48,034 nt of DNA from the IMG/VR virus record IMGVR_UViG_3300029079_000001; one strand, given 5' to 3'. Shown piece by piece: positions 13,967 through 30,640 of the stretch (its first letter is position 1; every line of letters starts with the position of its first letter). The stretch comes from a virus (lineage: Duplodnaviria; Heunggongvirae; Uroviricota; Caudoviricetes). The notes under the pieces are model-generated. The model made no database searches. It saw only the letters and a list, made by a program, of their open reading frames with translations, and was not told where the DNA came from. The position numbers were made by a program, and so were the translations under genes.

Positions 13967-13970
13967 ATTT

Positions 13971-17100: not shown

Positions 17101-18150
17101 GATTTCATAGCCAGTCCGCAGGCCGGTATTCCCTTTTCCTTCTGTGGCAGATTTCCGGTCATTATCCAGTGCGCAGGTGATTTTTGCCGCCGGGTACATG
17201 TTTACCAGTTGTTCCACAACATGAACCATGTTGTTAGCGGATACAGCGACAACCACAGCGTCAAAGCGTTTATCTTTTTTCGTGGCAAGCCAGATGGATG
17301 CACCAGTAGCAAAACCTTCTGTAACAGCGATGTTTTGCGCCCCTTTCAGCTCACCGATAACAAAGCAGGCACCGACGAAATCGCCGCTGGTTACTGCGCT
17401 GGTCTGGTATTTCCCACCTTGTTTGTCGATTCGCTGCCAACCCACAATACGACCATCATAACGACCGTCCAGGTGAGCCAGAGGGATAGCCATATATGTG
17501 GTTGGCCCCCGGCTCCATTTCGCACTGTCGTGACTGGTCACGCGACGCACATCACATGAACTAAAAACGTCACGAATACCTTTTTTAATCGCATATGGCC
17601 ATGAGCCGTCTTCAGCCTGAGCATGTTCCCACGCGCTGTGGAATGCCAGCCATCCCAGCAAACGTTCATGGTCCATTTGGTTGTTTTTCAGGTCATTAAT
17701 TCGTTTTTGTTCTTCACGGCGACGACGTGCTTCGGCCTGACGTTCTATTCTTTCCCGTTCTTCTTCCGGTTGTGCGACCACGGTCGCATTATTCCGTTGT
17801 TGCTCACGGCGATATTCAGAAAACAGGAAGGAGAAACCGCTCCATGAGCCAGCATCGCTGCCTTTATGGACGAAGTTAATGAACGGGTAATCAATCCCTT
17901 TGCTGTGTTCCAGCCTGGAGTAAATTTCTACGCGTCCTTTCAGGCTCTTTTCGAGAGCTTCTGGAGATGTTTTATTGTATGAAGAGTAACGCTCAACCCC
18001 CCCGCGAGGGTTGAGTTGGATGTTGTCGGAACAGGCAGACCAGTTGATACCAGCCATCTGTGCCAGCTCGGTTAGTTCATCCCGTGCTGCTTCAATTAGC
18101 GAGAACGGATCGCTGCCAAAGCGATCCGCATAGAAATCGTTTAATGTCAT
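14155..18150 (-). CDS. repA: Replication protein RepA (multidomain primase-helicase, N15 RepA-like)
   Basis: 1331 aa; Walker A GMGSGKST in the helicase part; position and size match N15 repA; sopC-like palindrome #1 lies inside it at 17771..17788. Confidence 0.85.
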   Translation of the reverse strand: MTLNDFYADRFGSDPFSLIEAARDELTELAQMAGINWSACSDNIQLNPRGGVERYSSYNKTSPEALEKSLKGRVEIYSRLEHSKGIDYPFINFVHKGSDAGSWSGFSFLFSEYRREQQRNNATVVAQPEEERERIERQAEARRRREEQKRINDLKNNQMDHERLLGWLAFHSAWEHAQAEDGSWPYAIKKGIRDVFSSCDVRRVTSHDSAKWSRGPTTYMAIPLAHLDGRYDGRIVGWQRIDKQGGKYQTSAVTSGDFVGACFVIGELKGAQNIAVTEGFATGASIWLATKKDKRFDAVVVAVSANNMVHVVEQLVNMYPAAKITCALDNDRKSATEGKGNTGLRTGYEILSKFNDVRCVYPTFEDDPQMECSDFNDLHKLRGLRETARQLFATANRLKTGTDLLSLTLNRLKTIKRDNRRTFAKELLRAVDIGMLTCPVPNSPSDLFNMFCIVLREMGLENIYRATVKDHIARRLNKKCRIAQAPRSFSERITDPNKRPQHITYKRFETSVMTDDVLKYVQSLQGIVIVRAGMGSGKSTGLLRPLMHSSERGISVAHRVSLIGGLWEMMTEGKGVKADILHYQDPGYQEIAPYASKLTICINSIVKNCWQPLMRQHDYFGFDEATQGLRAVLSGRAMENPVAVFNTLIDALARTEQHPIMVDADANDLLVDLAELAMKRREELGLPAWLQIHVIELPVDVRNRETGEPIRVFYTEKDRIMTEVVKAVSDGEKIMLATDSSTFAEDVTATLRMHFPGKKFLCVNQKNKPEPEVEAFTNQPKKMVKKYDGLIYSPSISSGVSIEQKHFDRHFGMFCGEVVPSDAVQMLRRDRTAKEFIIGFDKARAKRETDPQKIERAFAQALLATAGMNGELTDVVFDGDRISMGVANTDFTRMKIKAAAIEATARNDYASNMICIMHSDGYKVSPLATDYAANDIGKDLRKEARDIVWEQTLDLHLNTETPQESEREELLKKRALTLEEQAKLVRWDIENELKLPVEEGTLKFYFDGARDKVRRYETMLLDEVTARRYDREEAAINFTYAYRQAGQWQYFVVTAMTREQADDVFKTKFPGIIDHKVKATPTVEVGARGFYALKSATLRQYFIDCGINPETMTGEATQERLKFARDNLMTAERRDLLNNVLHIGGFMTPKGKPKVPEALFKNICDSLGLKTGKRRGRDGDKRPTLRFVEPESAAFMLDILVQRQKDGLTLKTRKAEKTAIEMDRDLDLNIYMDDKTRSTNEQVQNAPHSVISEALAVLPVAVPESWAMSALSSEELATMSSWSSASIAMTFASLYLTEFMDHLSSNELRRLREYITGNSSCSYEEQGAFYG
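17771..17788. repeat. sopC-like centromere palindrome #1 (inside repA)
   Basis: TGTGCGACCACGGTCGCA. Confidence 0.6.
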
Positions 18151-18204
18151 TTTTTAGCCATTCCATGCGAATTATGTTTTTTCGGGTTGAAAAAATCCGC
18201 AGGA

Positions 18205-18260
18205 GCAGCCACAATAAACGCATCTTGAATTGACGGAATCCGTCGCGTTACTGTGGCTGC
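18205..18260. promoter_or_regulatory. Large imperfect inverted repeat in the repA leader
   Basis: GCAGCCACAATAAACGC ... GCGTTACTGTGGCTGC with a 23-bp spacer. Confidence 0.4.
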
Positions 18261-18272
18261 TTCCTGAAAAGG

Positions 18273-18302
18273 ACCCGAGTTTGCCGACTCGGGTTTTTTT
18301 TC
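18273..18302. terminator. Hairpin plus T-run between cB and repA
   Basis: ACCCGAGT-TTGCCG-ACTCGGGT followed by TTTTTTTT on the plus strand; U-containing flank on the minus strand. Confidence 0.55.
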
Positions 18303-18395
18303 GTCTTTTTTCTGCTGCTGTAACCTGAGTCAACCCACAGAACATATGCCCTGCATTAAACCAGATTTACAGCAAACAATAAACCCCGTATTAAG

Positions 18396-18992
18396 TCATC
18401 TACCCTCAACCATGAATGATTTGATCGTTCCGACTATTTGGTGAACAAATTCAAGATCGCTTTTCCTGAAGATGGCGCGTTGTGAGTTTGTTCCATCCAG
18501 ATAGTAATTTTCATCATCAAAACGGGCCAGGCGCTGGATAGTGATATTTCCTGCAGTATCACGAACCAGAACATCCTCGCCGGGGACCAGTTCCAGCGCA
18601 GAATCGACCAGGAGAAAATCGCCTGGCTGATAGTTTCCCTGCGTAAGATTGCTGATAGTTAACGCATACACAGTATTGCGCTGGCTGATGAATGGCAGGA
18701 ATCGCTCAGTATTTGGAACCTGTCCCGGCTTCCACTCTTCATCCGGCCCACTTTCAGTTGTGCCAATAACAGGAATGCGATCAGGGTCATATTCTGTCCC
18801 ATATAGCACCCAATGCACTGGCTTGCGTAAGCACTTAGCCAGGGCAATACCTATCTCCAGTGACGGCATTACGTCGCCACGTTCTAAGTTTTGGACGCCT
18901 GCTATAGAGATATCGACAGCCTCAGCAACTTCTCGCAACGTCAGCTTCATCTCTAAACGGCGTGCTTTCAGTCGTTCGCCTCGTGTTTTCAT
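18396..18992 (-). CDS. cB: Prophage repressor CB (CI-like: N-terminal HTH plus C-terminal S24 LexA-like domain)
   Basis: 198 aa; HTH LTLREVAEAVDISIAGVQNLERG; divergent from cro across an operator-containing intergenic region. Confidence 0.8.
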   Translation of the reverse strand: MKTRGERLKARRLEMKLTLREVAEAVDISIAGVQNLERGDVMPSLEIGIALAKCLRKPVHWVLYGTEYDPDRIPVIGTTESGPDEEWKPGQVPNTERFLPFISQRNTVYALTISNLTQGNYQPGDFLLVDSALELVPGEDVLVRDTAGNITIQRLARFDDENYYLDGTNSQRAIFRKSDLEFVHQIVGTIKSFMVEGR

Positions 18993-19014
18993 ACTGTAAT
19001 CATAAATGATCTTC

Positions 19015-19056
19015 TTATAGCTGGCTATAAAATTTATTTATTATAGCTAGCTTTAA
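19015..19056. promoter_or_regulatory. Immunity operator sites between cB and cro
   Basis: 16-bp palindromes TTATAGCTGGCTATAA (19015..19030) and TTATAGCTAGCTTTAA (19041..19056). Confidence 0.7.
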
Positions 19057-19083
19057 TTGTTGTTTATTGTTTATAATAACAAC

Positions 19084-19305
19084 ATGAAACCAGAAGAACT
19101 TATTCGCCACTTTGGCAGTGTAGAAAAAGCAGCGGCAGGGGTAGGTGTAACACCCGGAGCTGTTTACCAATGGTTAACCGCTGGAGAGATTCCTTCATTG
19201 CGGCAAAGCGATATTGAAGTTCGTACTGCTTATAAGCTGAAGAGTGACTTTACAACTCGGCGGGTAAAGCAGTCGATTAAGGAGAGTCGTAAGCGTGGAG
19301 CTTGA
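19084..19305 (+). CDS. cro: Cro-like HTH regulator
   Basis: 73 aa from ATG 19084 (the ORF track uses upstream TTG 19057); HTH AAGVGVTPGAVYQWL; divergent from cB. Confidence 0.7.
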   Translation: MKPEELIRHFGSVEKAAAGVGVTPGAVYQWLTAGEIPSLRQSDIEVRTAYKLKSDFTTRRVKQSIKESRKRGA

Positions 19306-20005
19306 GTATATACGCAGCTGCGTCTCTACGGCATTGGCTGATGTTCATTATCGCCAGCGTGGCATTCTGGAGGTCCAGCTTGAGCAGATGCGTCTCGGTA
19401 GATCAGGACGGTTTAACAATAAACCAGTCCGCTCAATCAGTGTGGGGGATGATAACTCATACGAAGTGTCCGTTCCTGCTGAGCCGGTTAGATTCCACCA
19501 GGGGAAAACATTTAAACAATCATCAATGTTGCTCACTGATATTGATTTTCAGAGCGCCAGCTGGCGCAGGGCTATTGGTCAGTTGAATAACGAGGAATCA
19601 GCCTGGCTTTATTATTGCTACGGATGCAAGCCTGATTACAACAATGATGTGATTGTTTGTCAGTGGTTATGGCTTGATTTTCTGGTTGCTCATTCGGGGG
19701 GCGGCTTTAAAAAAATGAAGGCCTCCACGAAAAAAGCCATGCGGAAATTGATTTATTACGCGGCACAGCAGGTTAAATCAGAACTTACGTGTGCTGAGTC
19801 AGTTGATGAGAGAGAACAGGACAGGCATCTGAGTTTTCTACTGAATATATCTATTGATAGCTGGAGACAAGATTATAAAGAACGCTGGCTTTTAATTAAG
19901 TCGCGATGTCTGAGCTTAAATCGAACTGCATTATTAAATGCGGCGGAGAAGCGCAGTGAAATCATCAAACGCCATCGGGCAGGAAGTGCCATTCTGCCTT
20001 TGTAA
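19295..20005 (+). CDS. Hypothetical early protein (236 aa), possibly a Q-like late regulator
   Basis: Directly follows cro; Cys-containing YYCYGCKPDY region; assignment is by position only. Confidence 0.35.
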   Translation: MELEYIRSCVSTALADVHYRQRGILEVQLEQMRLGRSGRFNNKPVRSISVGDDNSYEVSVPAEPVRFHQGKTFKQSSMLLTDIDFQSASWRRAIGQLNNEESAWLYYCYGCKPDYNNDVIVCQWLWLDFLVAHSGGGFKKMKASTKKAMRKLIYYAAQQVKSELTCAESVDEREQDRHLSFLLNISIDSWRQDYKERWLLIKSRCLSLNRTALLNAAEKRSEIIKRHRAGSAILPL

Positions 20006-20012
20006 ACAAGTT

Positions 20013-20258
20013 ATGTTCAGGAAACCGTCGAAGCCAGAATTAAGGTATTCGGGGGTAAGAAATGAATATGTTATCTGGTGTCCAACTTGTGGTTACAGGA
20101 CACGACCAGATAGTAATAAGCAGTCTGTAATTGCCGATTGGTATTTATCAAATCAGCCAGGTAATAAGCATATAGAAAATCTTTGGATTAAGCGTTACTT
20201 GGAAATCAGAGAGGGTGCGACCGTGGTCGCACAAGAAAATGAAAATAACGCCATTTAA
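20013..20258 (+). CDS. Small zinc-ribbon protein
   Basis: ATG at 20013; CxxC pair in ...VIWCPTCGYRTRPD...; sopC-like site #2 lies near its 3' end. Confidence 0.45.
   Translation: MFRKPSKPELRYSGVRNEYVIWCPTCGYRTRPDSNKQSVIADWYLSNQPGNKHIENLWIKRYLEIREGATVVAQENENNAI
20215..20232. repeat. sopC-like centromere palindrome #2
   Basis: GTGCGACCGTGGTCGCAC. Confidence 0.6.
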
Positions 20259-20442
20259 GCAGGGGCCGATGACGCATGATGAAGCAGAGCGTCTTTCAGA
20301 TACTTATCGGCGGCGTGGTAAGAAAGTTCTGGTTGTTCGTTCTGATTTTTTAGGTGATGGATATTGCGTTTATGTTCATTTACCTGAATCAGAAAGAACG
20401 CCAAAGCCATCCAGAACATATCAACAGAAAATTTGGGTATAG
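20215..20442 (+). CDS. Hypothetical small protein
   Basis: ORF only; start ambiguous (alternative ATG at 20239). Confidence 0.35.
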   Translation: MRPWSHKKMKITPFKQGPMTHDEAERLSDTYRRRGKKVLVVRSDFLGDGYCVYVHLPESERTPKPSRTYQQKIWV

Positions 20443-20465
20443 ATAAACGTTGAGGAGAATTATTC

Positions 20466-21065
20466 GTGACTAATCAGATTATTTACGACAGGAAACGGTC
20501 TGATGTAATGATTGACCTTGAAGCAATGGGTACTAACACATGTGCTCCAATTGTTTCTATCGGGGCAGTGTTTTTTTCTCCAGAAAGTGAGGAATTAGGT
20601 CCTACTTTTTATGTGCCAGTGAATCTCAGAAGTTCGATGTTGAATGGTGGTGTCGCTGATGGTGATACTATTTTATGGTGGTTGAAACAGAGCAAGGAAG
20701 CCAGAGCCGCAATTTGTACTAATGATGCCCTTGATATTAAGGATGCACTTTTTGAATTATCACACTTTATTACTTGTCATGCATGTAATTTAAAAAAATT
20801 GAAAGTATGGGGAAATGGAGCAACGTTCGATAATGTAATTTTACGCGGTGCTTATGAGCGCGTTGGCTTAGCCTGTCCGTGGGAATATTTTAATGATCAG
20901 GATGTTCGAACAATCGTTAATCTTGGTCAGTTTATTGGTTTTAATCCTAAAAAAGATATGCCATTTGATGGCGAACGACACAATGCCCTGGCTGATGCTA
21001 TTCATCAGGCTAAATATGTATCCGCAATTTTCTCCCGTCTTGTAAAAGGGCAAGGAGAATCGTAA
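20466..21065 (+). CDS. DEDDh-type 3'-5' exonuclease (DnaQ-like fold)
   Basis: Exo motifs DLEAMG (N-terminal D-x-E) and HNALADA (H-x-x-x-x-D) near the C-terminus; GTG start with GAGGAG RBS. Confidence 0.6.
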   Translation: MTNQIIYDRKRSDVMIDLEAMGTNTCAPIVSIGAVFFSPESEELGPTFYVPVNLRSSMLNGGVADGDTILWWLKQSKEARAAICTNDALDIKDALFELSHFITCHACNLKKLKVWGNGATFDNVILRGAYERVGLACPWEYFNDQDVRTIVNLGQFIGFNPKKDMPFDGERHNALADAIHQAKYVSAIFSRLVKGQGES

Positions 21066-21484
21066 TGGCAAAGGCTTTTACACCAGAACAGAGGGAAGAA
21101 CTGAATAAACAAATTGTGGAACTCGTGCGCCTGAATGGACGAGGAACGGTTAGGCAACTTGCGGATGAAACTGGTATTAGCCGGTGTGCTGTTAGTCGTT
21201 TATCAAGAGAGCTTGCTGCCAGTGGTGATTTGTATATCTCTGGCTCCGGGATATTTCTGTCTGCACAAGCACGCAAGGACTGGCAAAACGCCCGTAAAAA
21301 ACTATCAAGAGTAAAGCCGAAGACATCGGTAGTGGTTGATCCAGACCTTATCTGGTCATTACCTGACGGAGAAATACGTCGTTACGACAGGCGCTTGAAC
21401 ATGATTTGTCACGATTGCCGGAAAAGTGAAGTTATGCAGCGTGTGCTGGCTTTTTATCAGGGAAATTTTCAGGAGGTGGCGTAG
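21065..21484 (+). CDS. Putative winged-helix/HTH DNA-binding protein
   Basis: GTVRQLADETGISRCAVSRLSREL helix-turn-helix-like segment. Confidence 0.45.
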   Translation: MAKAFTPEQREELNKQIVELVRLNGRGTVRQLADETGISRCAVSRLSRELAASGDLYISGSGIFLSAQARKDWQNARKKLSRVKPKTSVVVDPDLIWSLPDGEIRRYDRRLNMICHDCRKSEVMQRVLAFYQGNFQEVA

Positions 21485-21774
21485 TGAATATCGACACCAC
21501 GATAACGATCGATACGCTCCTAAATTCCGGTCTGGCACTTCTCGGTTGGCTTTACATCATGTCCCGTACATGGCGATGGCTGGGTTCCATTTTCCTGAAA
21601 CAGTGGAAAAAACGGCGCAAACAGGAACTACGCCAGAAGGCATTAGAAGCGTTCTATGACGCATTTGAACTTGGCAGCATTGAACCAGGCACAACAGCCA
21701 AGATAGCGACAAAAGGCGACCTGATGATAGTGATGTTCCGACAGGAGAGAGCAGAGAAAGGGGAATCAGCATGA
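21484..21774 (+). CDS. Small membrane-anchored hypothetical protein
   Basis: N-terminal hydrophobic segment LLNSGLALLGWLYIM. Confidence 0.4.
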   Translation: MNIDTTITIDTLLNSGLALLGWLYIMSRTWRWLGSIFLKQWKKRRKQELRQKALEAFYDAFELGSIEPGTTAKIATKGDLMIVMFRQERAEKGESA

Positions 21775-22349
21775 AATTTTCCAAATTTTCTGAGTTGGTG
21801 AATCGTATTTTGTCCAACAACCACAGCCATCGTCGCGATATGGATGTAACAATCGTTATTCATTCGCCTGGCAGCATTGGTTCAACACCTTCAGTTGAGG
21901 TTCAGTCAATTCACGCTGGTTTTGATTGGGATTCCGGGAAAGTGCTTATTTTCCCATCACAGCCACTGACCACGCTAACACCAGAACAGATTACTGATAT
22001 CACTGATAGTGTGCGCAAAGGTCAGTCCTGGCACGCATATCAGGAATACAAAAAGCATAAAGAGCAGTTGGAAAAATTGTCTATTGAGCTGGAAGCTGCA
22101 AGAAAGCGAATTTCAGAACAGGGAAATAAAGTAATACCAGTGTCAGCTGAATTGCCACCTGCAAATGAAAGTGTTCTGTTATTTGATGCTAACGGAGAAG
22201 GCTGGCTGATTGGCTGGCGTTCTCTCTGGTACACCTGGGGACAAAAGGAAACCGGAGAATGGCAGTGGACATTTCAGATCGGGGATCTTGAAAACGTCAA
22301 TATCACTCACTGGGCAGTAATACCAAAGGCACCGGAGGCAGGGGCATAA
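21771..22349 (+). CDS. Hypothetical protein (192 aa)
   Basis: ORF in an overlapping-stop/start operon. Confidence 0.45.
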   Translation: MKFSKFSELVNRILSNNHSHRRDMDVTIVIHSPGSIGSTPSVEVQSIHAGFDWDSGKVLIFPSQPLTTLTPEQITDITDSVRKGQSWHAYQEYKKHKEQLEKLSIELEAARKRISEQGNKVIPVSAELPPANESVLLFDANGEGWLIGWRSLWYTWGQKETGEWQWTFQIGDLENVNITHWAVIPKAPEAGA

Positions 22350-22762
22350 TGACCACATTTACCGACAAAGAACTGATTAAAGAAATCAAAGAGCGCATAG
22401 GCAGTCTGGATGTGCGAGACAATATTGAGCGCCGTGCTTATGAAATTGCTTTGGTATCGCTGGAAGCAGAACCGGTGGCATGGCTGCATTCAGACAATGG
22501 CTTAGGTATTCCGGCAATAACACGGAGTAAAAACATTGCTGACAGTTGGTTATCAAAGGGCTGGTATGTTCAGTCGCTATATGTAGCCCAGCCACTGCCG
22601 GTGGTGCCGGATGATAATCGTATTCAGTTTTCTGTTTCACTTCCTGCAGCGTTTGGTGGAGATAAATATTTTATTGATGGTGTATTTCAACCTTTGAGAT
22701 ATGAGCGTGACTGTGAAAAAGCGGTTGTGGCCGCTGGCGGTGTAGTTAATTGGGTTAAGTAA
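22349..22762 (+). CDS. Hypothetical protein (137 aa)
   Basis: ATGA-coupled ORF. Confidence 0.45.
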   Translation: MTTFTDKELIKEIKERIGSLDVRDNIERRAYEIALVSLEAEPVAWLHSDNGLGIPAITRSKNIADSWLSKGWYVQSLYVAQPLPVVPDDNRIQFSVSLPAAFGGDKYFIDGVFQPLRYERDCEKAVVAAGGVVNWVK

Positions 22763-22777
22763 TTTTAAGGAGGATTT

Positions 22778-23104
22778 ATGGCGCTGACACCGGCAGAACG
22801 GCAAAGGAGACGCAGGGAACGGTTGAAGAAGGAAGGCACATCAAGACGGGACTGGATTCTGGAGCCTGACGAGTTACGTATGTTGGGAGAAATTTGTGTA
22901 TTGCGTAGACCGGGGCGAGTTCCATATTCAGAGAATGAAGTCATTGGTCTGCTGATCAGGAAAAACTATAAGGAACTGCAGAAGCAGCTATCTACTACTT
23001 GCCCACGATGTGGTCAAAAAATGCCTGTTTCAGAATGCATTTTTGATGGTGAAGACTCATGTCACCTTACAACTACGAGGCTGAAACTTGCGCTCAAAGT
23101 GTGA
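22778..23104 (+). CDS. Hypothetical basic protein with C-terminal CxxC motif
   Basis: Arg-rich N-terminus RQRRRRERLKK; CPRCG motif. Confidence 0.4.
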   Translation: MALTPAERQRRRRERLKKEGTSRRDWILEPDELRMLGEICVLRRPGRVPYSENEVIGLLIRKNYKELQKQLSTTCPRCGQKMPVSECIFDGEDSCHLTTTRLKLALKV

Positions 23105-23235
23105 CTGGTCACGGAATGATAAACGAAGCGAAAAGAGCTTTTCTTATGGTGATGATGGGCTTTTGTAGGTGGTTGAGTGAGGCGTAGGAAGAGAACATAA
23201 ATATCTGACTACAAAGCTATTAACCCAGTTAATCC

Positions 23236-23258
23236 ATTGAAAGTTGGCTATAAAATTT
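23236..23258. promoter_or_regulatory. Candidate CB operator half-site/promoter upstream of the 23309 gene
   Basis: GGCTATAAAATTT is identical to the right half of the 19015 operator. Confidence 0.45.
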
Positions 23259-23308
23259 GAGTTTTAACCTGTAATTTTATACAGTATCAAATAACCTTTT
23301 TTAATTAA

Positions 23309-23527: not shown

Positions 23528-23570
23528 TACACACCCCGCCCTTCTGGACGGGGTAGCGAAAAGTGATTAA

Positions 23571-23858
23571 TCAATAGACGGCATTAATATTAATCGTTGC
23601 GCCACATGCTTGGGCATATTTTGATAAAGTTTTCATGCTTGCTCCTAAAGGATTGCTTTCCAGGCGGCTGATGGCGGACGGGCGCAAGCCCATTCTTTCT
23701 GCCAGAGCTGACTTCGTTAAACCTGCTCTTTCCCTCATTTCGTATAACATTTCGACCATCTCCAGTTCTTTATCGGCCTCTTCATATCCTTTGATAGCTT
23801 CTGGAGTGTTGAGTAGTTTTTCCTTTACTTCGTTAAACGGGATGCCTTTTGCTTTCAT
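23571..23858 (-). CDS. HTH (XRE-family) antitoxin, HigA-like
   Basis: 95 aa; HTH LTKSALAERMGLRPSAISRLES; start overlaps the upstream toxin stop. Confidence 0.65.
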   Translation of the reverse strand: MKAKGIPFNEVKEKLLNTPEAIKGYEEADKELEMVEMLYEMRERAGLTKSALAERMGLRPSAISRLESNPLGASMKTLSKYAQACGATININAVY

Positions 23859-24169
23859 CAGTTCATCTCCTTCAGGCGAGTTCTGGCGATTTCTATAGCC
23901 TTTACTGGTGTTTTCTGTGTCTTTTTTACAAATGCATGCAATAGATAAATTTCGTTACCAGTCGCGTAGGCGTATAGCGTTCTTGCGATATTTTTATCCC
24001 CTACTCTTAGTTCAAAGAGTCCTCCGCCTATTACACGGCTATGGGGCATCTTAAGTTTGTTTCCTTCTTTCTCAAGCCGTTCAATTAGCCTGGTCATGCG
24101 ACCTCGCAGATCGTCTGGTAGTTCAAGCAGTTCATCCAGTGCTGCAGGGTGGGTTATCACGTTAAACAT
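23858..24169 (-). CDS. RelE/ParE-superfamily toxin, Gp49/HigB-2-like
   Basis: 103 aa from ATG 24169 with AGGAGG RBS; toxin-upstream-of-antitoxin (hig-type) order; ...LFELRVGDKNIARTLYAY... core. Confidence 0.55.
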   Translation of the reverse strand: MFNVITHPAALDELLELPDDLRGRMTRLIERLEKEGNKLKMPHSRVIGGGLFELRVGDKNIARTLYAYATGNEIYLLHAFVKKTQKTPVKAIEIARTRLKEMN

Positions 24170-24227
24170 ATTATAGCCTCCTAACGCGCAAAATACACCA
24201 AAACGAGAAAACATTGCAAACATAAAA

Positions 24228-24245
24228 TTTCACTAAAAAGTGAAA
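24228..24245. promoter_or_regulatory. Palindromic operator in the toxin-antitoxin promoter
   Basis: TTTCAC-TAAAAA-GTGAAA inverted repeat 60 bp upstream of the toxin start. Confidence 0.5.
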
Positions 24246-24315
24246 AATAACGCTGGATGTGTTCGTTTGGCAGAGTTACAGTTCGTGTTGTTGAGGGGGA
24301 TAACCCACTAACTGT

Positions 24316-24555
24316 ATGAATTTGGAGGATATTATGAATTATCAAGGTAACGAAAAAATGCGCGACGACGTTGCTGAGATAGCTAACGAACTGTATGAGT
24401 TGTGGCAGAAGGTTGAACGTTTCGAAAAGGAATATGGTTTCAACAGTACCAACCTAGCAGACCGACTGGCTGGTCGCTTAGTTGGGACTATGGGGCCAAA
24501 ACTGGCTGAGTTGAACCGCTTTATGGCTGATGTTGATTTCCAGTTTCAAGATTGA
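24316..24555 (+). CDS. Hypothetical protein (79 aa)
   Basis: ORF with GGAGG RBS. Confidence 0.45.
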   Translation: MNLEDIMNYQGNEKMRDDVAEIANELYELWQKVERFEKEYGFNSTNLADRLAGRLVGTMGPKLAELNRFMADVDFQFQD

Positions 24556-24568
24556 TTAGAGAGGCGTT

Positions 24569-24796
24569 ATGAATATTAATGAAATTCGTGGAAATATGAC
24601 TGAAGCGGCCCTGAGTGTGGAATGTGTTATGCGTGGATACCCACGCATTTCCCTGAAAGAGTTAAGCGAAGCCTGTTTTTTGAGTCAAGTTGCCGTTGAA
24701 TTTATCATCGAACAGATGATCTGTTTTGGGGTTGCAAAGCGTAGTGGATCTGGTCGATATTCTTTGACCGATGAATATAAGCAGGCAACTTTCTAA
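24569..24796 (+). CDS. Hypothetical protein (75 aa)
   Basis: ORF; followed by sopC-like site #3 and terminator hairpins. Confidence 0.45.
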   Translation: MNINEIRGNMTEAALSVECVMRGYPRISLKELSEACFLSQVAVEFIIEQMICFGVAKRSGSGRYSLTDEYKQATF

Positions 24797-24800
24797 AAAC

Positions 24801-24818
24801 TGTGCGACCACGGTCGCA
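24801..24818. repeat. sopC-like centromere palindrome #3
   Basis: GTGCGACCACGGTCGCAC (intergenic). Confidence 0.6.
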
Positions 24819-24904
24819 CAGCACAAAAACGAAAAAGCTTGGCAAAATGACGGTTTTTAGTTATTGTTTTGTTAAGTTGGGTTTTTTGTACCCAACAGCC
24901 AACA

Positions 24905-24935
24905 AGCCGCCTTTATGGCGGTTTTTTTGTGCCTG
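24905..24935 (+). terminator. Intrinsic terminator(s) after the 24316..24796 genes
   Basis: AGCCGCC-TTTA-TGGCGG followed by TTTTTTT; a second hairpin GTTGGGT...ACCCAAC lies upstream. Confidence 0.55.
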
Positions 24936-25063
24936 AAAAGTGGGCGCAGGACAATTTGCAGCTTGTCCTGCGGTCAACCCATGCCAGAGCTATAGGCTGA
25001 ACCTAAAGCCCACCCGCGATGCGCATCGCCGGGTTAGCTTACCCAGGCAAAAAAATAATAGCT

Positions 25064-26140
25064 ATGTTCAAAACCACTAATATTCATGGCGCACAACTCG
25101 TTTGCGCAGATTCTCTGCAATTTATCAAAACCATCCCTGATAACTCGGTCAATTTGATTGCAACAGACCCACCATACTTCGGCGTAAAGGCTAACGCATG
25201 GGATAACCAGTGGGATAGCGATGCTGACTTTTTGGGGTGGATTGACGAATTTTTGGCAGAATTTTGGCGGATATTGGCCCCTAATGGCAGCCTGTATATG
25301 TTTACCGGCTCTCGCCTTGCGTCAAAAATTGAATTATTAACTCGCGACCGTTTCAATGTTCTGAACCATATCATTTGGGCTAAACCCAGTGGTATGTGGC
25401 GCGGTTGTCATAAAGAAAGTTTAAGGGCTTATTTTCCTGCTACTGAAAGAATATTATTTGCAGAGCATTACGGCGCGTCAGGTTATGCTAAAGGTCAGTC
25501 AGGTTATGCTTCAAAATGTGCAGATTTAAGAAAAAATATTTTTTCTCCACTAATTGATGCTTTTTCGCTGGCTCGCCGTCAGTTAGATATATCAGCCGCA
25601 GACATTAATTCAGCGACAGGAAAGCAGATGTGTTCGCACTGGTTTTCTTATTCGCAGTGGCGGCTTCCATCATTAATTGATTTTAATAAACTATGCGAAT
25701 TATTTCGCAGGAAGGCAGATTCACTCGGTGTCCCGTGTCCATATCCTTTTAATGTTGATTATTCAGAACATGAAAAGCGTTATAGCGATCTGAAATTGCA
25801 TTATGAGGAAGTAAAGAAGCAGTATGATGATTTGAAGGCTCAGTATGAAAATTTGCGCCGCCCATTTCATGTTACTGCTGATGTACCTTATACCGATGTA
25901 TGGGAGTTTCCTCCTGTGCAATATTATCCTGGCAAGCACCCATGTGAAAAACCTGCAGCGATGATGGAACATATTATAAAGAGTAGTTCACGCCCCGGAG
26001 ATATCGTTGCCGATTTCTTTATGGGATCAGGCTCAACTATTAAAGCTGCGCTGAAGTTAGGACGTCAGGCAATAGGTATTGAGATTGAGGGCGAACGTTA
26101 TCTTCAGACAGTTGATGAAGTGAAAAAGTTATTTGAGTAA
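25064..26140 (+). CDS. Orphan N6-adenine (beta-class, CcrM-like order) DNA methyltransferase
   Basis: DPPY catalytic motif (IATDPPYFG) N-terminal to the AdoMet motif FFMGSGST; ATG 25064 preferred over the longer 25019 frame. Confidence 0.75.
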   Translation: MFKTTNIHGAQLVCADSLQFIKTIPDNSVNLIATDPPYFGVKANAWDNQWDSDADFLGWIDEFLAEFWRILAPNGSLYMFTGSRLASKIELLTRDRFNVLNHIIWAKPSGMWRGCHKESLRAYFPATERILFAEHYGASGYAKGQSGYASKCADLRKNIFSPLIDAFSLARRQLDISAADINSATGKQMCSHWFSYSQWRLPSLIDFNKLCELFRRKADSLGVPCPYPFNVDYSEHEKRYSDLKLHYEEVKKQYDDLKAQYENLRRPFHVTADVPYTDVWEFPPVQYYPGKHPCEKPAAMMEHIIKSSSRPGDIVADFFMGSGSTIKAALKLGRQAIGIEIEGERYLQTVDEVKKLFE

Positions 26141-26154
26141 CTGGAGAATATATT

Positions 26155-26184
26155 CCCCTGCCGTTTTTGGTAGGGGTTATTTTT
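26155..26184 (+). terminator. Intrinsic terminator between the methylase and the lysis cassette
   Basis: CCCCTGCC-GTTTTT-GGTAGGGG followed by TTATTTTT. Confidence 0.55.
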
Positions 26185-26235
26185 GCCATATAGTTTCCAA
26201 GCCGAAACCTCAGCAACTATTGCGAGGTAAGAGAT

Positions 26236-26508
26236 ATGAAGATGGATGAACGATACAGCAGTGCATCTTATGGTAGCGCTGGTCTTGCTGCGTTCTTTGC
26301 CAGCCTGTCATTGCAGGATTGGGGCTTCATTATCGGTGTCGCGTTCAGCATTATCCTCGGTGTGCTTACATACCGGCTCAATAAACGCGAGCAGATGAAG
26401 CGCACGAAGATATTGCAGGACATATTGGATAAAACTAATACCAATAATCTTTCTGCTACAGCGATGGTTATTGGAGAGCTGGGGAAGAGAGCACCGAAGG
26501 AAATATGA
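26236..26508 (+). CDS. Class II holin (pinholin S21-like), MKM dual-start motif
   Basis: 90 aa; two TM segments ([27 protein letters not shown]); start overlaps into the endolysin gene. Confidence 0.7.
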
Positions 26509-27005
26509 TGCAGTCATCATTACGCAAAGCTGTCACAGTTGCTATTGGTGGCGGGGCTATTGCCATAGCGTCTATGCTCATCACTGGCCCAAGTGGTAAC
26601 GATGGTCTGGAAGGTGTCAGTTACATACCATACAAAGATATTGTTGGCGTATGGACTGTATGTTACGGACACACCGGAAAAGACATCATGCTAGGTAAAA
26701 CGTATACCGAAGCAGAATGCAAAGCTCTCCTGAATAAAGACCTTGCCACTGTCGCCAGACAAATTAATCCGTACATCAAAGTCGATATACCGGAAACAAC
26801 GCGCGGCGCTCTTTACTCGTTCGTTTACAACGTGGGCGCTGGCAATTTCAGAACATCGACGCTTCTTCGCAAAATAAACCAGGGCGATATCAAGGGCGCA
26901 TGTGACCAGCTACGTCGCTGGACATACGCTGGCGGTAAGCAATGGAAAGGGCTGATGACTCGCCGTGAGATTGAGCGTGAAGTCTGTTTGCGGGGGCAAC
27001 AATGA
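26505..27005 (+). CDS. SAR endolysin (phage lysozyme, T4-lysozyme-like fold)
   Basis: 166 aa; Gly/Ala-rich N-terminal signal-anchor [19 protein letters not shown]; lysozyme core ...[11 protein letters not shown]... Confidence 0.8.
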
Positions 27006-27093
27006 GCATGATTTGCTTTTTCATGGCAGCGTTGCTCGCATTCAATGGCAACGATGCGTGGCCGTGGTTTCTGGCCGTTGGAGTGTTGATGTC

Positions 27094-27555
27094 ATGAGTC
27101 GGTTAACCGCGATTATCTCCGCTCTGGTTATCTGCATCATCGTCTGCCTGTCATGGGCTGTTAATCATTACCGTGATAACGCCATCTCCTACAAAGAGCA
27201 GCGCGACAAAAACGCCAGAGAGTTGAAGCTGGCGAACGCCACCATCAAAGACATGCAGATCCGCCAGCGTGATGTAGCGGCTCTGGATGCCAAATACACG
27301 AAGGACTTAGCTGATGCTAAAAAGCAGCTTGATGATTTGCAGCGTTGTGTTCGCACTGGCAAGTGTGGGCTGCACCTCAACGCCAGATGTCCCGCGAACG
27401 GAGCGACCATCACCGGCGGCCTGGGCGATGCTACCGGCCCCCGACTTACTGACTCCGCTGAACGGGATTATTTCATCCTCAGAGAGCGAATCGTCACAGT
27501 GACGAAACAGGTTGGATATTTGCAGGAGTACATCAGGACGCAATGCCTGAATTAA
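27094..27555 (+). CDS. Rz: Spanin inner-membrane subunit Rz
   Basis: 153 aa from ATG 27094; N-terminal [17 protein letters not shown]; coiled-coil body; closely matches recalled lambda Rz. Confidence 0.85.
27314..27502 (+). CDS. Rz1: Spanin outer-membrane lipoprotein Rz1 (embedded in Rz, +1 frame)
   Basis: 62 aa; lipobox LASVGC; Pro-rich. Confidence 0.8.
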
Positions 27556-27596
27556 TTCCTCTGCATCAAAAACTAACTTAATTTGTTGGATAGTGA

Positions 27597-27923
27597 ATGA
27601 AAATTTATATTTCCGGACCAATGACGGGATATGAGAATTTTAATCGTGACGCCTTTAATAAAGAGGCTGAGCGTTTATCACGTCATGCTCACGTAGTCCT
27701 GAACCCGGCGATTTTTCCTAATGGCCTGACACAACGTGCACACATGGAGATTTGCTTTGCAATGCTTCGCTGTGCTGATGCTATTTTGATGCTTCCTGGC
27801 TGGAAAACATCTGCCGGAGCCACTGCGGATTACCATTACGCATACAAGATGGGGATGCCGGTATTCACTACGCTGAATTATCCGCCAGCTTGTTCCTCGT
27901 GTGCGACCGTGGTCGCACGCTAA
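27597..27923 (+). CDS. DUF4406-like protein (nucleoside 2-deoxyribosyltransferase-like fold)
   Basis: MKIYISGPMTG... N-terminal signature; sopC-like site #4 lies in its last codons. Confidence 0.55.
   Translation: MKIYISGPMTGYENFNRDAFNKEAERLSRHAHVVLNPAIFPNGLTQRAHMEICFAMLRCADAILMLPGWKTSAGATADYHYAYKMGMPVFTTLNYPPACSSCATVVAR
27901..27918. repeat. sopC-like centromere palindrome #4
   Basis: GTGCGACCGTGGTCGCAC. Confidence 0.6.
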
Positions 27924-27928
27924 ATTCC

Positions 27929-27996
27929 GCGCTGCATCGTCGCCGTATTCCCGCATTAACTATGACCGTAGCCCGACGGGGAACTCCTCTGCGCGA
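27929..27996. repeat. Left copy of a ~68-bp direct repeat flanking the AT-rich cassette
   Basis: GCGCTGCATCGTCGCCGTATTCCCGCATTAACTATGACCGTAGCCCGACGGGGAACTCCTCTGCGCGAG; second copy at 29713..29780 with 4 mismatches. Confidence 0.8.
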
Positions 27997-28120
27997 GTGT
28001 GCGGAAATAATCAAAAACGATGCACACCGGGTTTTTACCGCGCTATTGATTCGCGGGTTTGTCCCTCATGCTCGCCAGTCCTGTGCGAGGGTGGAAGAAA
28101 CAGGGCATGTATTCAGGAGC

Positions 28121-28138
28121 GTGCGACCGTGGTTGCAC
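28121..28138. repeat. sopC-like centromere palindrome #5 (one mismatch)
   Basis: GTGCGACCGTGGTTGCAC. Confidence 0.5.
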
Positions 28139-28161
28139 GGTATCTTTGTCAGGAGGTTTTG

Positions 28162-29022
28162 ATGAAAGAGTTGCAAAAAATTAATTCAATAATGGAAAGG
28201 TTAAGTGCTCTTGAGCGTAAGCTGGACGATTGTGGAAAGCTGTGTGTTGAAAAGCAAAATGAGCTTTACCGAGAATTTTTTACAATCGTAAGTGAGCTGA
28301 TGCCAATTGTTAATAACTGCCTGATGACATCCAGATTTTTTAATGTCGATGCTACTACATCCAGAAAATTTTCTGTGAAAATTCAAGAAAGAGTTTCTGG
28401 TAGTGTGACAAGAGAGATGGCTGAACAGTTGGTGGCAATGAGCAATAAAACAAAAAGAAAAAAGGCATTGCTTGTAACAGCAAATCAGCTTTCAGGGCGC
28501 GTTGACTTTCAGGTCAGACAGGGTGGGCGTGTACTGGTAAATGATGCGTTCGTTGGACGTAGCTTTAGTCCTTACTCGATGAAATATGATGTTGATGCAG
28601 ATGATCAGGATATCAGCATTTCCTGGAAATCTGAGACAGCAGGGATTGTATTAACAGCAGAGTTGTTGAGTGATGATAAAAATGATGTCCAGCATCATTT
28701 GGACGAAAAGAATCATATTTCTGAAATTTGTATGAAGCCACGCAGCGGAATGACTTTATTGTCACGCACTCTTGCTGCTGGCTTTTCTGCACCGGAAAAA
28801 CGTGTGCTTCTGGTAGTGCCTGAAGATGCAGATATTCGACCACTGAATGGCTGTGATGTTATTAGTGCAAAAACATTGCATACCCGCGTCATTCCTGTAC
28901 CGGATGTGGTCATTATTGATGATGTTGAGAAATGCAAGTCTGTTTCCTCAACTGCCACAATCAAGCGAATTTTACGTTGTAGCACGTCGGCTGTTGTATT
29001 CCGGAAGCAGTTACATAACTAA
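28162..29022 (+). CDS. Hypothetical cytoplasmic protein (287 aa), AT-rich cassette gene 1
   Basis: ATG 28162 with AGGAGG RBS (the track's 27901 start reads through the repeat); N-terminal coiled-coil-like segment; no recognisable family. Confidence 0.6.
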   Translation: MKELQKINSIMERLSALERKLDDCGKLCVEKQNELYREFFTIVSELMPIVNNCLMTSRFFNVDATTSRKFSVKIQERVSGSVTREMAEQLVAMSNKTKRKKALLVTANQLSGRVDFQVRQGGRVLVNDAFVGRSFSPYSMKYDVDADDQDISISWKSETAGIVLTAELLSDDKNDVQHHLDEKNHISEICMKPRSGMTLLSRTLAAGFSAPEKRVLLVVPEDADIRPLNGCDVISAKTLHTRVIPVPDVVIIDDVEKCKSVSSTATIKRILRCSTSAVVFRKQLHN

Positions 29023-29146
29023 CCAGTTTTGTTTTGCAGAACATCCTCAACTAAAAGCTTATAGAAAGAGAACCTGAGATATTTTTTCTGTCTCTCGTAG
29101 TTGTTTATTTTTTTTCGAACAGGCTTACAACTTACAGGATATAAAC

Positions 29147-29596
29147 ATGCAAGAAGAAGCAAATAAAATTCTTGTTGATTTATTGAAGAAGGCCAGCGAT
29201 GGAATTGATTCCGCCATTGCATTCAGTCAGGCACAGATTCCGGATGTTGTTCATCAGTTGCTGGTATGGAATATGGTTGATAGCCTGATTAAAACATTAA
29301 TAGCCATTTCAACAATCCCGCTAGTTATTTGGTTTATGAAGAAACAGTACCAAAAAGTTGAAATTGGTAAGTTCGATAATGAAGGATGGTCATGGGAAAA
29401 ATGGAAGCCTAAATACAAACAGACTATGATTTGGGAAAGTAACGGTGAGATTAGTTTTCTTATCTTACCATTAGCAGCAGTTTTTGTTCTGTGGGTAAGT
29501 TTTATTATTGCTGTAGTAACCAATATGACATGGTTAAAAATCTGGTTGGCACCTAAGTTATATCTAATCGAATACGCAGCATCACTAATTAAATAG
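29147..29596 (+). CDS. Hypothetical membrane protein (149 aa, two TM segments), AT-rich cassette gene 2
   Basis: TM segments LIKTLIAISTIPLVIWF and ISFLILPLAAVFVLWVSFIIAVV. Confidence 0.55.
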   Translation: MQEEANKILVDLLKKASDGIDSAIAFSQAQIPDVVHQLLVWNMVDSLIKTLIAISTIPLVIWFMKKQYQKVEIGKFDNEGWSWEKWKPKYKQTMIWESNGEISFLILPLAAVFVLWVSFIIAVVTNMTWLKIWLAPKLYLIEYAASLIK

Positions 29597-29712
29597 TCCA
29601 TTACAAAAGCCATTCGCTACTGAGTGGCTTTGATAATGGCTTATACCCTACACGGGATAACTTAACTGATATCCCTTTTAACGGATAAATGTATTCAAGC
29701 CTGACACATCAT

Positions 29713-29780
29713 GCGCTGTATCGTCGCTGTATTCCCGCATTAACCATGACCGTAGCCTGACGGGGAACTCCTCTGCGCGA
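29713..29780. repeat. Right copy of the ~68-bp direct repeat
   Basis: GCGCTGTATCGTCGCTGTATTCCCGCATTAACCATGACCGTAGCCTGACGGGGAACTCCTCTGCGCGAG. Confidence 0.8.
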
Positions 29781-29805
29781 GCATGCAGGATGTTGATTCA
29801 TTGCT

Positions 29806-29823
29806 GTGCGACCGTGGTCGCAC
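29806..29823. repeat. sopC-like centromere palindrome #6
   Basis: GTGCGACCGTGGTCGCAC. Confidence 0.6.
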
Positions 29824-29879
29824 GACGCAGGTCTGTCAGACATTGAATTCATTGCGAATAAACCAGAACGCCTGCGGGT

Positions 29880-30614: not shown

Positions 30615-30640
<26 letters not shown>
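30095..30640 (+). CDS. nu1: Terminase small subunit Nu1
   Basis: 181 aa, MEVNKKQLADIFGASIRTIQNWQEQGMPV..., lambda Nu1-like. Confidence 0.9.

What the first reader, a model, noticed from the sequence alone, without database searches (positions are those of the whole stretch)
17771..29823. Six dispersed copies of an 18-bp palindrome resembling the F sopC SopB-binding box
GTGCGACC(A/G)(C/T)GGTCGCAC occurs at 17771, 20215, 24801, 27901, 28121 (one mismatch) and 29806, inside genes as well as between them. It resembles the inverted repeat inside F-plasmid sopC (TGGGACCACGGTCCCA), and the window encodes F-like SopA/SopB without a clustered sopC next to sopB. N15 is known to use dispersed centromere sites; six copies is more than the four I recall for N15.
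Basis: partly seen in the sequence, partly recalled or inferred. Interest (0 to 1): 0.55.

Follow-up and report, generated by a model that had tools for sequence, protein, structure and literature searches.

The report
N15-type dispersed SopB centromere sites
The six 18-bp palindromes are almost certainly the scattered centromere sites that let an N15-like linear phage-plasmid be partitioned by its own SopA/SopB proteins; this system is already known from phage N15, here with two extra copies made by a local duplication.

Summary
GTGCGACC(R)(Y)GGTCGCAC occurs six times in the window, at 17772, 20215, 24802, 27901, 28121 and 29806, against about 0 expected. The window is a complete, circularly permuted N15-like telomere phage-plasmid. 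It encodes sopA and sopB (93% and 73% identical to N15's), a protelomerase, telRL and repA.

The motif is identical to N15's experimentally defined centromere sites IR1-IR4. Sites 1-3 are positional orthologues of IR1-3, and site 4 matches phiKO2's fourth annotated partition site. There is no F-like tandem sopC.

Comparison with relatives supports SopB binding:
- The box type (GCGACC versus F-type GGGACC) co-varies with the SopB recognition helix (DRN versus SRK).
- At the repA-internal site the box is kept while the encoded peptide changes.

Six sites is not exceptional. Relatives carry 4-6, and PY54 carries about 11 F-type boxes. Sites 5 and 6 arose by duplication of an 'X-palindrome' unit in the mosaic lysis-to-cos region. 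That region is exchanged with integrated, sop-less lambdoid prophages, a few of which therefore also carry these boxes.

This is a new member of a known kind, of modest interest.

The parts
17772..17789 (.). Site 1: SopB box inside repA (GTGCGACCACGGTCGCAT); orthologue of N15 IR1
   Evidence: flanks align with N15 33479; same codon and reading frame in the window, N15, phiKO2 and PY54. PMC2847241 states that the N15 centromere site within repA supports sopAB-dependent stable inheritance.
20215..20232 (.). Site 2: perfect SopB box 210 bp downstream of the Q antiterminator gene; orthologue of N15 IR2
   Evidence: phiKO2's record annotates a 'putative plasmid partitioning site' at the same position.
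24802..24819 (.). Site 3: perfect SopB box 20 bp upstream of the late promoter; orthologue of N15 IR3
   Evidence: N15 annotates -35/-10 signals at 41162/41185 just after IR3 at 41124; phiKO2 has the same layout.
27901..27918 (.). Site 4 (S4): perfect box at the 3' end of the DUF4406 (nucleoside deoxyribosyltransferase-like) gene; equivalent to phiKO2's fourth annotated partition site and to N15 IR4
28121..28138 (.). Site 5 (S5): degenerate box (GGTTGC; position 5' C->T), an extra copy, 24 bp upstream of the 286-aa ORF
   Evidence: This copy is perfect in PhiR46_1 and pEA26_5. The mutated position is otherwise 49/50 invariant.
29806..29823 (.). Site 6 (S6): perfect box, an extra copy, ~85 bp upstream of cosN
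   Evidence: Absent from PhiR46_1 and pRHBSTW-00124_4; present in pEA26_5, pAH01-1 and the E. fergusonii plasmid.
7269..8234 (-). sopB (ParB-type centromere-binding protein, 321 aa)
   Evidence: 73% identical to N15 SopB; PHROG ParB-like, E 1e-113; matches the F SopB crystal structures 3MKY/3MKW/3MKZ; recognition helix is of the N15 'DRN' type.
8234..9400 (-). sopA (ParA-type partition ATPase, 388 aa)
   Evidence: 93% identical to N15 SopA.
9836..9877 (.). telRL: perfect 42-bp palindrome, the protelomerase target; its centre defines the ends of the linear prophage
   Evidence: It lies between sopA and the protelomerase gene (10048-11949), as in N15 and phiKO2.
14155..18150 (-). repA (1331 aa replication protein) containing site 1
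24839..24924 (+). Late promoter (TTGGCA-17-TATTGT, 24839-24867) and downstream terminator (24904-24924), the presumed Q-antiterminated unit next to site 3
   Evidence: same arrangement annotated in N15 and phiKO2.
27929..28110 (+). Segment X: a lambdoid cos-proximal block lying between S4 and S5
   Evidence: Present in 3087 of 5426 complete E. coli genomes, usually without flanking boxes; alignment.
29713..29786 (+). Segment X': a 74-bp direct repeat of the start of X (92% identical) just before S6, the footprint of the duplication of the X-box unit

Best explanation
The six palindromes are N15-type centromere (parS/IR) sites. Dimers of the element's own SopB (a ParB-family helix-turn-helix protein) bind each 18-bp box and nucleate partition complexes. 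SopA (a ParA ATPase) then positions these complexes on the nucleoid, so that the low-copy linear prophage is inherited by both daughter cells. Unlike F, where the boxes are clustered as tandem 43-bp sopC repeats next to sopB, here they are dispersed over ~12 kb (16-42% of the linear map measured from telL), as in N15. Sites 1-4 are the ancestral set shared with N15 and phiKO2. Sites 5 and 6 are lineage-specific additions, created when an 'X + box' unit upstream of cos was duplicated around a two-gene accessory block in the recombination-prone lysis-to-cos region. By analogy with N15, sites 2 and 3 (next to Q and the late promoter) may also let Sop proteins influence late transcription. Shown here: sequence identity with the experimentally defined N15 sites, positional orthology, a cognate SopAB, covariation between box type and recognition helix, and DNA-level conservation. 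Inferred: actual binding and partition activity in this element, and the contribution of each individual site.
For: (1) Six matches against 0 in shuffles; chance expectation 2.6e-6. (2) N15 carries the same 18-mer at exactly four places. These are the IR1-IR4 sites used as the 'N15 centromere', on which N15 SopB forms foci (PMC7205306), and the repA-internal site supports sopAB-dependent stability (PMC2847241). (3) The flanks of sites 1-3 align with N15 IR1-3. phiKO2's GenBank record annotates four 'putative plasmid partitioning sites' at the same four contexts: in repA, after Q, before the late promoter and after the DUF4406 gene. (4) SopA is 93% and SopB 73% identical to N15's, and there is no tandem sopC. 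(5) Covariation: five elements with GCGACC boxes have D-R-N in the recognition helix, whereas F and PY54, which have GGGACC boxes, have S-R-K. The literature maps box specificity to exactly this segment (PMC2910045). (6) At the repA site the box sits at the same codon and frame in four phages, but the peptide changes from ATVVA to GTTVP in PY54, exactly as the box switch dictates, so the DNA is what is conserved. PY54 has F-type boxes at all four canonical positions. (7) Across 50 sites in 10 elements the 14-bp core is essentially invariant while the flanks are unconstrained. (8) Multi-copy occurrence is specific to N15-like elements in 596 Gb of representative genomes.
Against: No binding or stability data exist for this element. 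SopB is only 73% identical to N15's, with 4 substitutions in the 22-residue specificity segment (G->N, V->I, N->T, M->I), although relatives with the same or similar substitutions carry the same boxes. Site 5 has a mutation at an otherwise invariant position and may be weak or dead. Perfect copies of S4-S6 also occur in integrated lambdoid prophages that lack sopAB, so presence of a box does not by itself prove that it is selected as a centromere. In my small sample the boxes in sop-less prophages (6 of 8 perfect) are not clearly more decayed than S4-S6 in sop-bearing plasmids (12 of 15 perfect).
Confidence: 0.9

Rival explanations
1. Only the ancestral sites (1-3, and perhaps 4) are selected centromeres. 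Sites 5 and 6, and possibly one of the 4/5 pair, are redundant hitchhikers that arrived with a recombined lambdoid lysis-cos module. They bind SopB incidentally, or in the case of site 5 poorly, and contribute nothing to fitness.
For: S5 and S6 are absent from N15, phiKO2 and MStein-2023a, and are present or absent in different combinations among close relatives. S5 is mutated here, and S4 is decayed in pAH01-1 and in prophage L127. The same boxes occur in sop-less integrated prophages. The X-box unit is visibly duplicated.
Against: S6 is perfect here and in four relatives. Multiplication of boxes is recurrent across the group: PY54 has ~11, a Citrobacter element has an extra one after the capsid gene, and IMG/VR contigs have pairs 47-220 bp apart. 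That recurrence suggests extra sites are at least tolerated and perhaps favoured on linear replicons.
Confidence: 0.3
2. The palindromes act mainly as RNA hairpins or intrinsic terminators, or as mRNA-stabilising stem-loops, in phage transcripts rather than as protein-binding DNA sites.
For: Each box can fold into a 6-9 bp stem with a tetraloop, at -11 to -17 kcal/mol. N15's record annotates IR4 as a putative rho-independent terminator, and the terminator scan flags site 5.
Against: Only one of the six has a T-rich tail. Site 1 lies inside repA, where termination would be deleterious. The z-scores are unremarkable for sites 4-6. A hairpin role would allow compensatory changes anywhere in the stem, yet the sequence is invariant, and it switches only at position 4/4', in step with the SopB helix.
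Confidence: 0.03
3. The boxes are sites for recombination, either for a dedicated recombinase or as short-homology 'linker' sequences, and their main significance is in shuffling modules between telomere phages and lambdoid phages.
For: S4, S5 and S6 all sit exactly at junctions of mosaic blocks: DUF4406|X, X|accessory genes and X|cos. Different prophages show the blocks in different combinations, and the 220-bp S4-X-S5 interval is collapsed to a single box in L128 and L133.
Against: Sites 1-3 are in stable, syntenic positions with no mosaic junctions. No candidate recombinase is associated with the boxes. Junction placement is equally expected if conserved 18-20-bp boxes merely offer microhomology, so this would be a by-product of the boxes existing rather than an alternative function.
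Confidence: 0.05

Closest known systems
Phage-plasmid N15 Sop partition system with dispersed centromere sites IR1-IR4 (Ravin & Lane 1999, J Bacteriol 181:6898; Grigoriev & Lobocka 2001, cited from memory; Dorokhov, Ravin & Lane 2010, Plasmid 64:51)
   Same: Identical 18-bp box. The sopA-sopB operon lies next to telRL. Boxes sit in the same contexts: inside repA, after Q, before the late promoter, and in the region between the lysis genes and cos. They occupy a similar span on the linear map, 16-42% from telL here versus 19-45% in N15.
   Different: Six boxes rather than four. SopB is only 73% identical. IR4's context differs: N15 has a cytosine methyltransferase gene between the DUF4406 gene and the box. 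The two extra boxes flank an accessory block that is absent from N15.
phiKO2 (Klebsiella oxytoca telomere phage), with four annotated 'putative plasmid partitioning sites'
   Same: Same box. The fourth site lies directly downstream of the DUF4406/nucleoside deoxyribosyltransferase-like gene, as S4 does here. Site 1 has the same outer-position variant (...GCAT).
   Different: Four sites, and HK97-like rather than lambda-like virion genes.
F plasmid sopABC
   Same: Homologous SopA and SopB (SopB ~50% identical), and a palindromic box that differs at a single position per half-site.
   Different: In F the boxes are clustered as tandem 43-bp repeats (10-12 copies) immediately downstream of sopB. 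The box is GGGACC rather than GCGACC, and the recognition helix is SRK rather than DRN. F SopB does not function with N15 sites (PMC7205306).
Yersinia phage PY54 spyAB
   Same: A telomere phage with dispersed palindromic boxes at the same four canonical positions.
   Different: The boxes are F-type (TGGGACCNNGGTCCCA). There are about 11 of them, including some in the virion-gene arm, and the ParB homologue is only 56% identical.

Membership tests
N15-type dispersed Sop centromere (IR sites) | 18-bp palindrome GTGCGACC-NN-GGTCGCAC matching IR1-IR4 | tested here: met
   Four perfect sites and two with one mismatch. N15's own sites come out of the same scan, and the published IR oligos carry the same 18-mer.
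N15-type dispersed Sop centromere (IR sites) | Cognate SopA/SopB encoded by the same replicon | tested here: met
   sopA 8234-9400 and sopB 7269-8234 are 93% and 73% identical to N15's.
N15-type dispersed Sop centromere (IR sites) | SopB specificity segment (N15 residues 179-200) of the N15 type | tested here: met
   18 of 22 residues are identical, and the D-R-N motif around the Arg190 equivalent is conserved. All five GCGACC-box elements share it, while the GGGACC-box elements have S-R-K. Specificity mapping is from PMC2910045.
N15-type dispersed Sop centromere (IR sites) | Sites dispersed at conserved genomic positions rather than clustered next to sopB | tested here: met
   Flank alignment with IR1-3, phiKO2 annotation, and no tandem array.
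N15-type dispersed Sop centromere (IR sites) | Residence on a linear plasmid-prophage with hairpin telomeres (protelomerase plus telRL) | tested here: met
   A 633-aa protelomerase homologue and a perfect 42-bp palindrome at 9836-9877.
N15-type dispersed Sop centromere (IR sites) | SopB binds the sites, and the sites confer sopAB-dependent segregational stability | not testable with these tools
   Needs EMSA, ChIP-seq and plasmid-loss assays. Only the comparative evidence is available.
F-type sopC centromere | Tandem array of 43-bp repeats adjacent to sopB | tested here: not met
   Tandem Repeats Finder finds none, and the region downstream of sopB has no boxes.
F-type sopC centromere | Box TGGGACCACGGTCCCA | tested here: not met
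   Five of the six window boxes differ from it at position 4 and 4', i.e. 2 mismatches over the 16-mer; site 5, with a third mismatch, falls outside that scan. No F-type box is present.

The most novel reading that the evidence does not exclude
N15-type SopB boxes have spread on a mobile lysis-cos module into integrated, sop-less lambdoid prophages of E. coli chromosomes, and there they may not be inert. When an N15-like plasmid-prophage enters such a cell, its SopB would load onto the chromosome at these boxes. That could give the resident prophage a partition-incompatibility or titration effect against the incoming plasmid. Conversely, the conserved boxes could act as microhomology hotspots that drive module exchange between telomere phages and lambdoid phages, which would make box copy number (4 to 6 to 11) an evolvable trait of linear replicons.
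Probability: 0.12. Interest if true: 0.55.

Novelty: new member of a known kind. Interest (0 to 1): 0.25.

Why it matters
The result confirms that the dispersed-centromere design of N15 is conserved across the wider group of enterobacterial telomere phage-plasmids, and it gives a clean natural covariation between box and recognition helix that supports the proposed SopB specificity code. It also shows that the number of centromere boxes is fluid (4, 5, 6 and ~11) and documents one concrete route by which boxes multiply: duplication of a box-bearing unit in a mosaic region shared with ordinary lambdoid prophages. For annotation, these 18-mers should be labelled as partition sites and not as terminators. 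Their presence on some chromosomal prophages is a small, testable lead on cross-talk between plasmid-prophages and integrated prophages.

Tried and rejected
(1) Primary papers not available: Ravin & Lane 1999 (PMC94163) and Ravin, Rech & Lane 2008 (PMC2394991) are not held. Statements about Sop effects on late gene expression therefore rest on the paper's title, as cited in PMC11652158, and on my memory.

58 of the 75 single-box loci have no similarity to the window and look like chance, so I used it only for spacing patterns.

(3) Short 71-bp megablast queries centred on S4 and S6: too insensitive to give genome-wide counts because they need a 28-bp exact word. They show only that these exact contexts are rare (6 and 14 of 5426 genomes) and mostly chromosomal.

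(4) F plasmid under accession AP001918.1 was not found; NC_002483.1 worked.

(5) cosN search with the N15 or lambda 12-mer allowing up to 1 mismatch found nothing. Reading the sequence shows a variant cosN (GGGCGGAAGGCG) embedded in lambda-like cos flanks at about 29905.

(6) Terminator/RNA-hairpin reading: considered and rejected.

(7) Test for stronger decay of boxes in sop-less prophages: the sample is too small (8 boxes versus 15) to conclude anything.

(8) YDC107_1 (CP025712.1) was not used for counting, because the record is a palindromically duplicated assembly that lacks sopAB.
Full report
**1. Observation**

A scan of both strands for GTGCGACCRYGGTCGCAC, allowing up to two mismatches, returns exactly six sites:
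- 17772-17789 (last base T; 1 mismatch)
- 20215-20232
- 24802-24819
- 27901-27918
- 28121-28138 (GGTTGC; 1 mismatch)
- 29806-29823

None of 100 dinucleotide-preserving shuffles gave a match. From base composition the expected number of exact matches is 2.6e-6. Relaxing to the 14-bp core adds only two 2-mismatch hits elsewhere, in line with chance.

**2. What the window is**

The window is a complete, circularly permuted genome of an N15-like telomere phage-plasmid.
- The tail-tip J ORF runs across the window's ends (1174 codons, 46839 wrapping to 2326).
- It encodes sopB (7269-8234, minus strand) and sopA (8234-9400, minus strand).
- A perfect 42-bp telRL palindrome lies at 9836-9877.
- It has a protelomerase gene (10048-11949), repA (14155-18150, minus strand), a cI/cro/Q immunity region, lysis genes, a lambda-like cos at about 29905 and lambda-like virion genes.
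- The closest records are Escherichia phage PhiR46_1 and YDC107_1, at ~96% identity over 17-30.5 kb. N15 and phiKO2 match at ~75% over the repA-Q region.
- SopA is 93% and SopB 73% identical to N15's. Identical or near-identical SopB proteins occur on ~46-48-kb plasmids of E. coli, E. albertii and E. fergusonii.

**3. Identity of the motif**

N15 carries the same 18-mer at exactly four places: 33479, 35930, 41124 and 45561. These are the published centromere sites IR1-IR4.
- The oligonucleotides used to build a synthetic 'N15 centromere', on which N15 SopB forms foci, contain the same boxes and flanks (PMC7205306).
- The site inside repA supports sopAB-dependent stable inheritance of N15-derived linear vectors (PMC2847241).
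- The flanks of window sites 1, 2 and 3 align with those of IR1, IR2 and IR3.
- phiKO2's deposited annotation marks four 'putative plasmid partitioning sites': inside repA, downstream of Q, just upstream of the late promoter, and just downstream of a DUF4406/nucleoside-deoxyribosyltransferase-like gene. The last is the context of window site 4.
- Site 3 lies 20 bp upstream of a conserved late promoter (TTGGCA-17-TATTGT, 24839-24867) that is followed by a terminator (24904-24924), as in N15 and phiKO2.
- There is no F-like tandem sopC anywhere in the window.

**4. Comparative evidence that SopB reads these boxes**

Evidence (a): box type and recognition helix co-vary. The literature maps centromere specificity to F SopB residues 177-198 and N15 SopB residues 179-200, and notes that the two boxes differ only at position 4/4' (PMC2910045). 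In an alignment of seven SopB homologues:
- The five whose genomes carry GCGACC boxes (window, N15, phiKO2, a Citrobacter plasmid, PhiR46_1) have I/V-D-R-N-I in the recognition helix.
- F and PY54 have I-S-R-K-I. F's sopC box is TGGGACC…GGTCCCA (PMC3597684). PY54's genome carries about eleven TGGGACCNNGGTCCCA boxes, eight of them perfect.

Evidence (b): PY54's boxes include all four canonical positions (in repA, after Q, before the late methylase gene, after DUF4406).

Evidence (c): the repA-internal box is at the same codon (~121-123) and the same reading frame in all four phages. The N15-type box encodes A-T-V-V-A, while PY54's F-type box encodes G-T-T-V-P. Those are exactly the amino-acid changes forced by the C/G switch at position 4/4'. 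The DNA palindrome is therefore what selection maintains, and it has co-evolved with the resident ParB.

Evidence (d): across 50 boxes from 10 elements the central 14 bp are essentially invariant and the two central bases are R-Y-like. Conservation stops abruptly at the edges of the 18-mer.

**5. Is six unusual?**

No. Counts with up to 2 mismatches are:

| Element | Boxes |
|---|---|
| N15 | 4 |
| phiKO2 | 4 |
| Enterobacter phage MStein-2023a | 4 |
| PhiR46_1 | 5 |
| pRHBSTW-00124_4 | 5 |
| E. fergusonii RHB28-C13 plasmid | 5 |
| Citrobacter pRHBSTW-00524_3 (one box after the major capsid gene) | 5 |
| E. albertii pEA26_5 | 6 |
| pAH01-1 (one decayed) | 6 |
| Window | 6 |

PY54 has ~11 F-type boxes. 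IMG/VR fragments show further local pairs 47, 155, 181 and 220 bp apart.

**6. Origin of the extra sites**

The lysis-to-cos region has this structure:

Rz - DUF4406 - S4 - X (27929-28110) - S5 - [286-aa ORF, 149-aa ORF] - A - X' (29713-29786, 92% identical to the start of X, with ~120 bp deleted internally) - S6 - cos - Nu1

- An 'X-box-cos' arrangement is seen intact in the E. fergusonii plasmid and in some lambdoid prophages.
- In the window the X-box unit is present twice, on either side of the two-gene block.
- In L128 and in the E. fergusonii plasmid the S4-X-S5 interval is collapsed to a single box.
- X on its own is a common lambdoid cos-proximal segment, found in 3087 of 5426 complete E. 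coli genomes.

So sites 5 and 6 arose through duplication and reshuffling of box-bearing blocks, and the boxes sit exactly at block junctions.

**7. Boxes in sop-less prophages**

This whole module is shared at 95-99% identity with bona fide integrated lambdoid prophages. These have an integrase, cI/cro/cII and O/P-type replication genes, and no sopAB. They carry the boxes too:
- L129: S4 and S5 perfect.
- L128 and L138: one perfect box each.
- L127: S5 and S6 perfect, S4 with 2 mismatches.
- L137: a 3-mismatch relic.
- Escherichia sp. E1V33: one box.

The DUF4406 gene with a following box is present in N15, phiKO2 and PY54, and in PY54 the box is the F-type that matches its own ParB. The module therefore most likely originated in telomere phages and was transferred into lambdoids by recombination through the homologous late genes (inference). 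Such prophages are a small minority.

Outside these contexts the motif is not an E. coli feature. In 596 Gb of species-representative genomes the exact motif gives 107 stretches. Nearly all are singletons in high-GC taxa, at roughly the chance level. The only multi-box contig is a 46-kb N15-like contig of Pseudocitrobacter.

**8. Mechanism**

The best-supported reading (confidence ~0.9) is that SopB dimers bind the boxes and nucleate partition complexes, and that SopA positions these so the low-copy linear prophage is inherited.
- The boxes lie 7.9-19.9 kb from telL, which is 16-42% of the 48-kb linear map. The corresponding span in N15 is 19-45%.
- By analogy with N15, sites 2 and 3 may couple Sop to late transcription. 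This rests on the title of Ravin, Rech & Lane 2008, cited, and on my memory of it. I could not read the paper.
- Site 5 carries a change at an otherwise invariant position and may be weakened.
- Whether sites 5 and 6 add to stability or are tolerated passengers is open (rival, ~0.3).
- An RNA-hairpin or terminator role is unlikely: only one box has a T-tail, one lies inside repA, and the stem sequence is invariant rather than merely complementary.

**9. Verdict**

This is a new member, and a six-box variant, of the known N15-type dispersed centromere, not a new kind of system. The modestly new points are:
- the natural covariation between box and recognition helix, including the forced peptide change in RepA;
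- the duplication route by which boxes multiply;
- the presence of SopB boxes on sop-less chromosomal lambdoid prophages.

Noticed in passing
L127 20406/20626/22410; L128 20406; L129 20406/20626; L138 2512; L137 2694 (3-mismatch relic); L161 (Escherichia sp. E1V33): Integrated lambdoid prophages in E. coli chromosomes have int, cI/cro/cII and O/P-type replication genes and no sopAB, yet carry perfect N15-type SopB boxes. The boxes sit in a DUF4406-to-cos module that is 95-99% identical to window 27523-30700. This probably reflects module transfer from telomere phages. Possible SopB cross-talk or incompatibility is untested.
   Followed up: partly
L125 (PY54) 508, 6566, 22251, 26513, 30984, 31240, 34394, 39870, 40976, 41121, 44409: PY54 carries about 11 dispersed F-type boxes (TGGGACCNNGGTCCCA; 8 perfect), including some in the virion-gene arm and one at the start of spyB. 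Its ParB homologue has the F-type S-R-K recognition motif. At the repA site the box switch changes the encoded peptide from ATVVA to GTTVP.
   Followed up: yes
L134 (Citrobacter pRHBSTW-00524_3) 24288: This N15-like plasmid has a perfect N15-type box in a new position, immediately downstream of the major capsid gene in the structural arm, where N15, phiKO2 and the window have none.
   Followed up: no
window 27597-27923: The DUF4406 ORF is 108 aa here, against 103 aa in relatives. A 27-bp deletion removes the usual stop codon, so translation reads through box S4. The new C-terminus, ...CATVVAR, contains the same box-encoded ATVVA peptide as RepA.
   Followed up: partly
window 27929-28110 (segment X): The ~180-bp segment between S4 and S5 matches 3087 of 5426 complete E. 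coli genomes (4564 chromosomal places). It is usually unannotated, lies upstream of cos/nohD and has no flanking boxes. Its function is unknown.
   Followed up: partly
window 1 / 48034 junction; 46839..2326: The window is a circularised, permuted assembly of a linear prophage. The J tail-tip ORF (1174 codons) spans the window's ends, and the true prophage ends are at the centre of telRL (9856/9857).
   Followed up: yes
L123 (CP025712.1, phage YDC107_1): The deposited 'complete genome' looks like a hairpin read-through artefact. The protelomerase-to-repA arm is present twice in inverted orientation, the second copy is full of frameshifted fragments, and sopAB and part of the tail genes are missing.
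   Followed up: no
window 3583-4035: There are 189-bp (and nested 42- and 21-bp) tandem repeats, 91% matching over 2.3 copies, inside the 793-aa side-tail-fibre ORF (3058-5439). This is a likely repetitive fibre domain, unrelated to partition.
   Followed up: no
L016 1784/1831; L029 3050/3205; L115 8642/8823 (IMG/VR contigs): Some uncultivated N15-like contigs have pairs of boxes only 47, 155 or 181 bp apart. These are small local clusters, intermediate between the dispersed N15 layout and the tandem F layout.
   Followed up: no
window 29905-29916: The cosN-like sequence is GGGCGGAAGGCG, embedded in flanks nearly identical to lambda's cos region. It differs from both the lambda (GGGCGGCGACCT) and the N15 (GGGCGGCGTCCG) cohesive-end sequences. 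Box S6 lies ~85 bp inside the right end of the virion DNA.
   Followed up: partly
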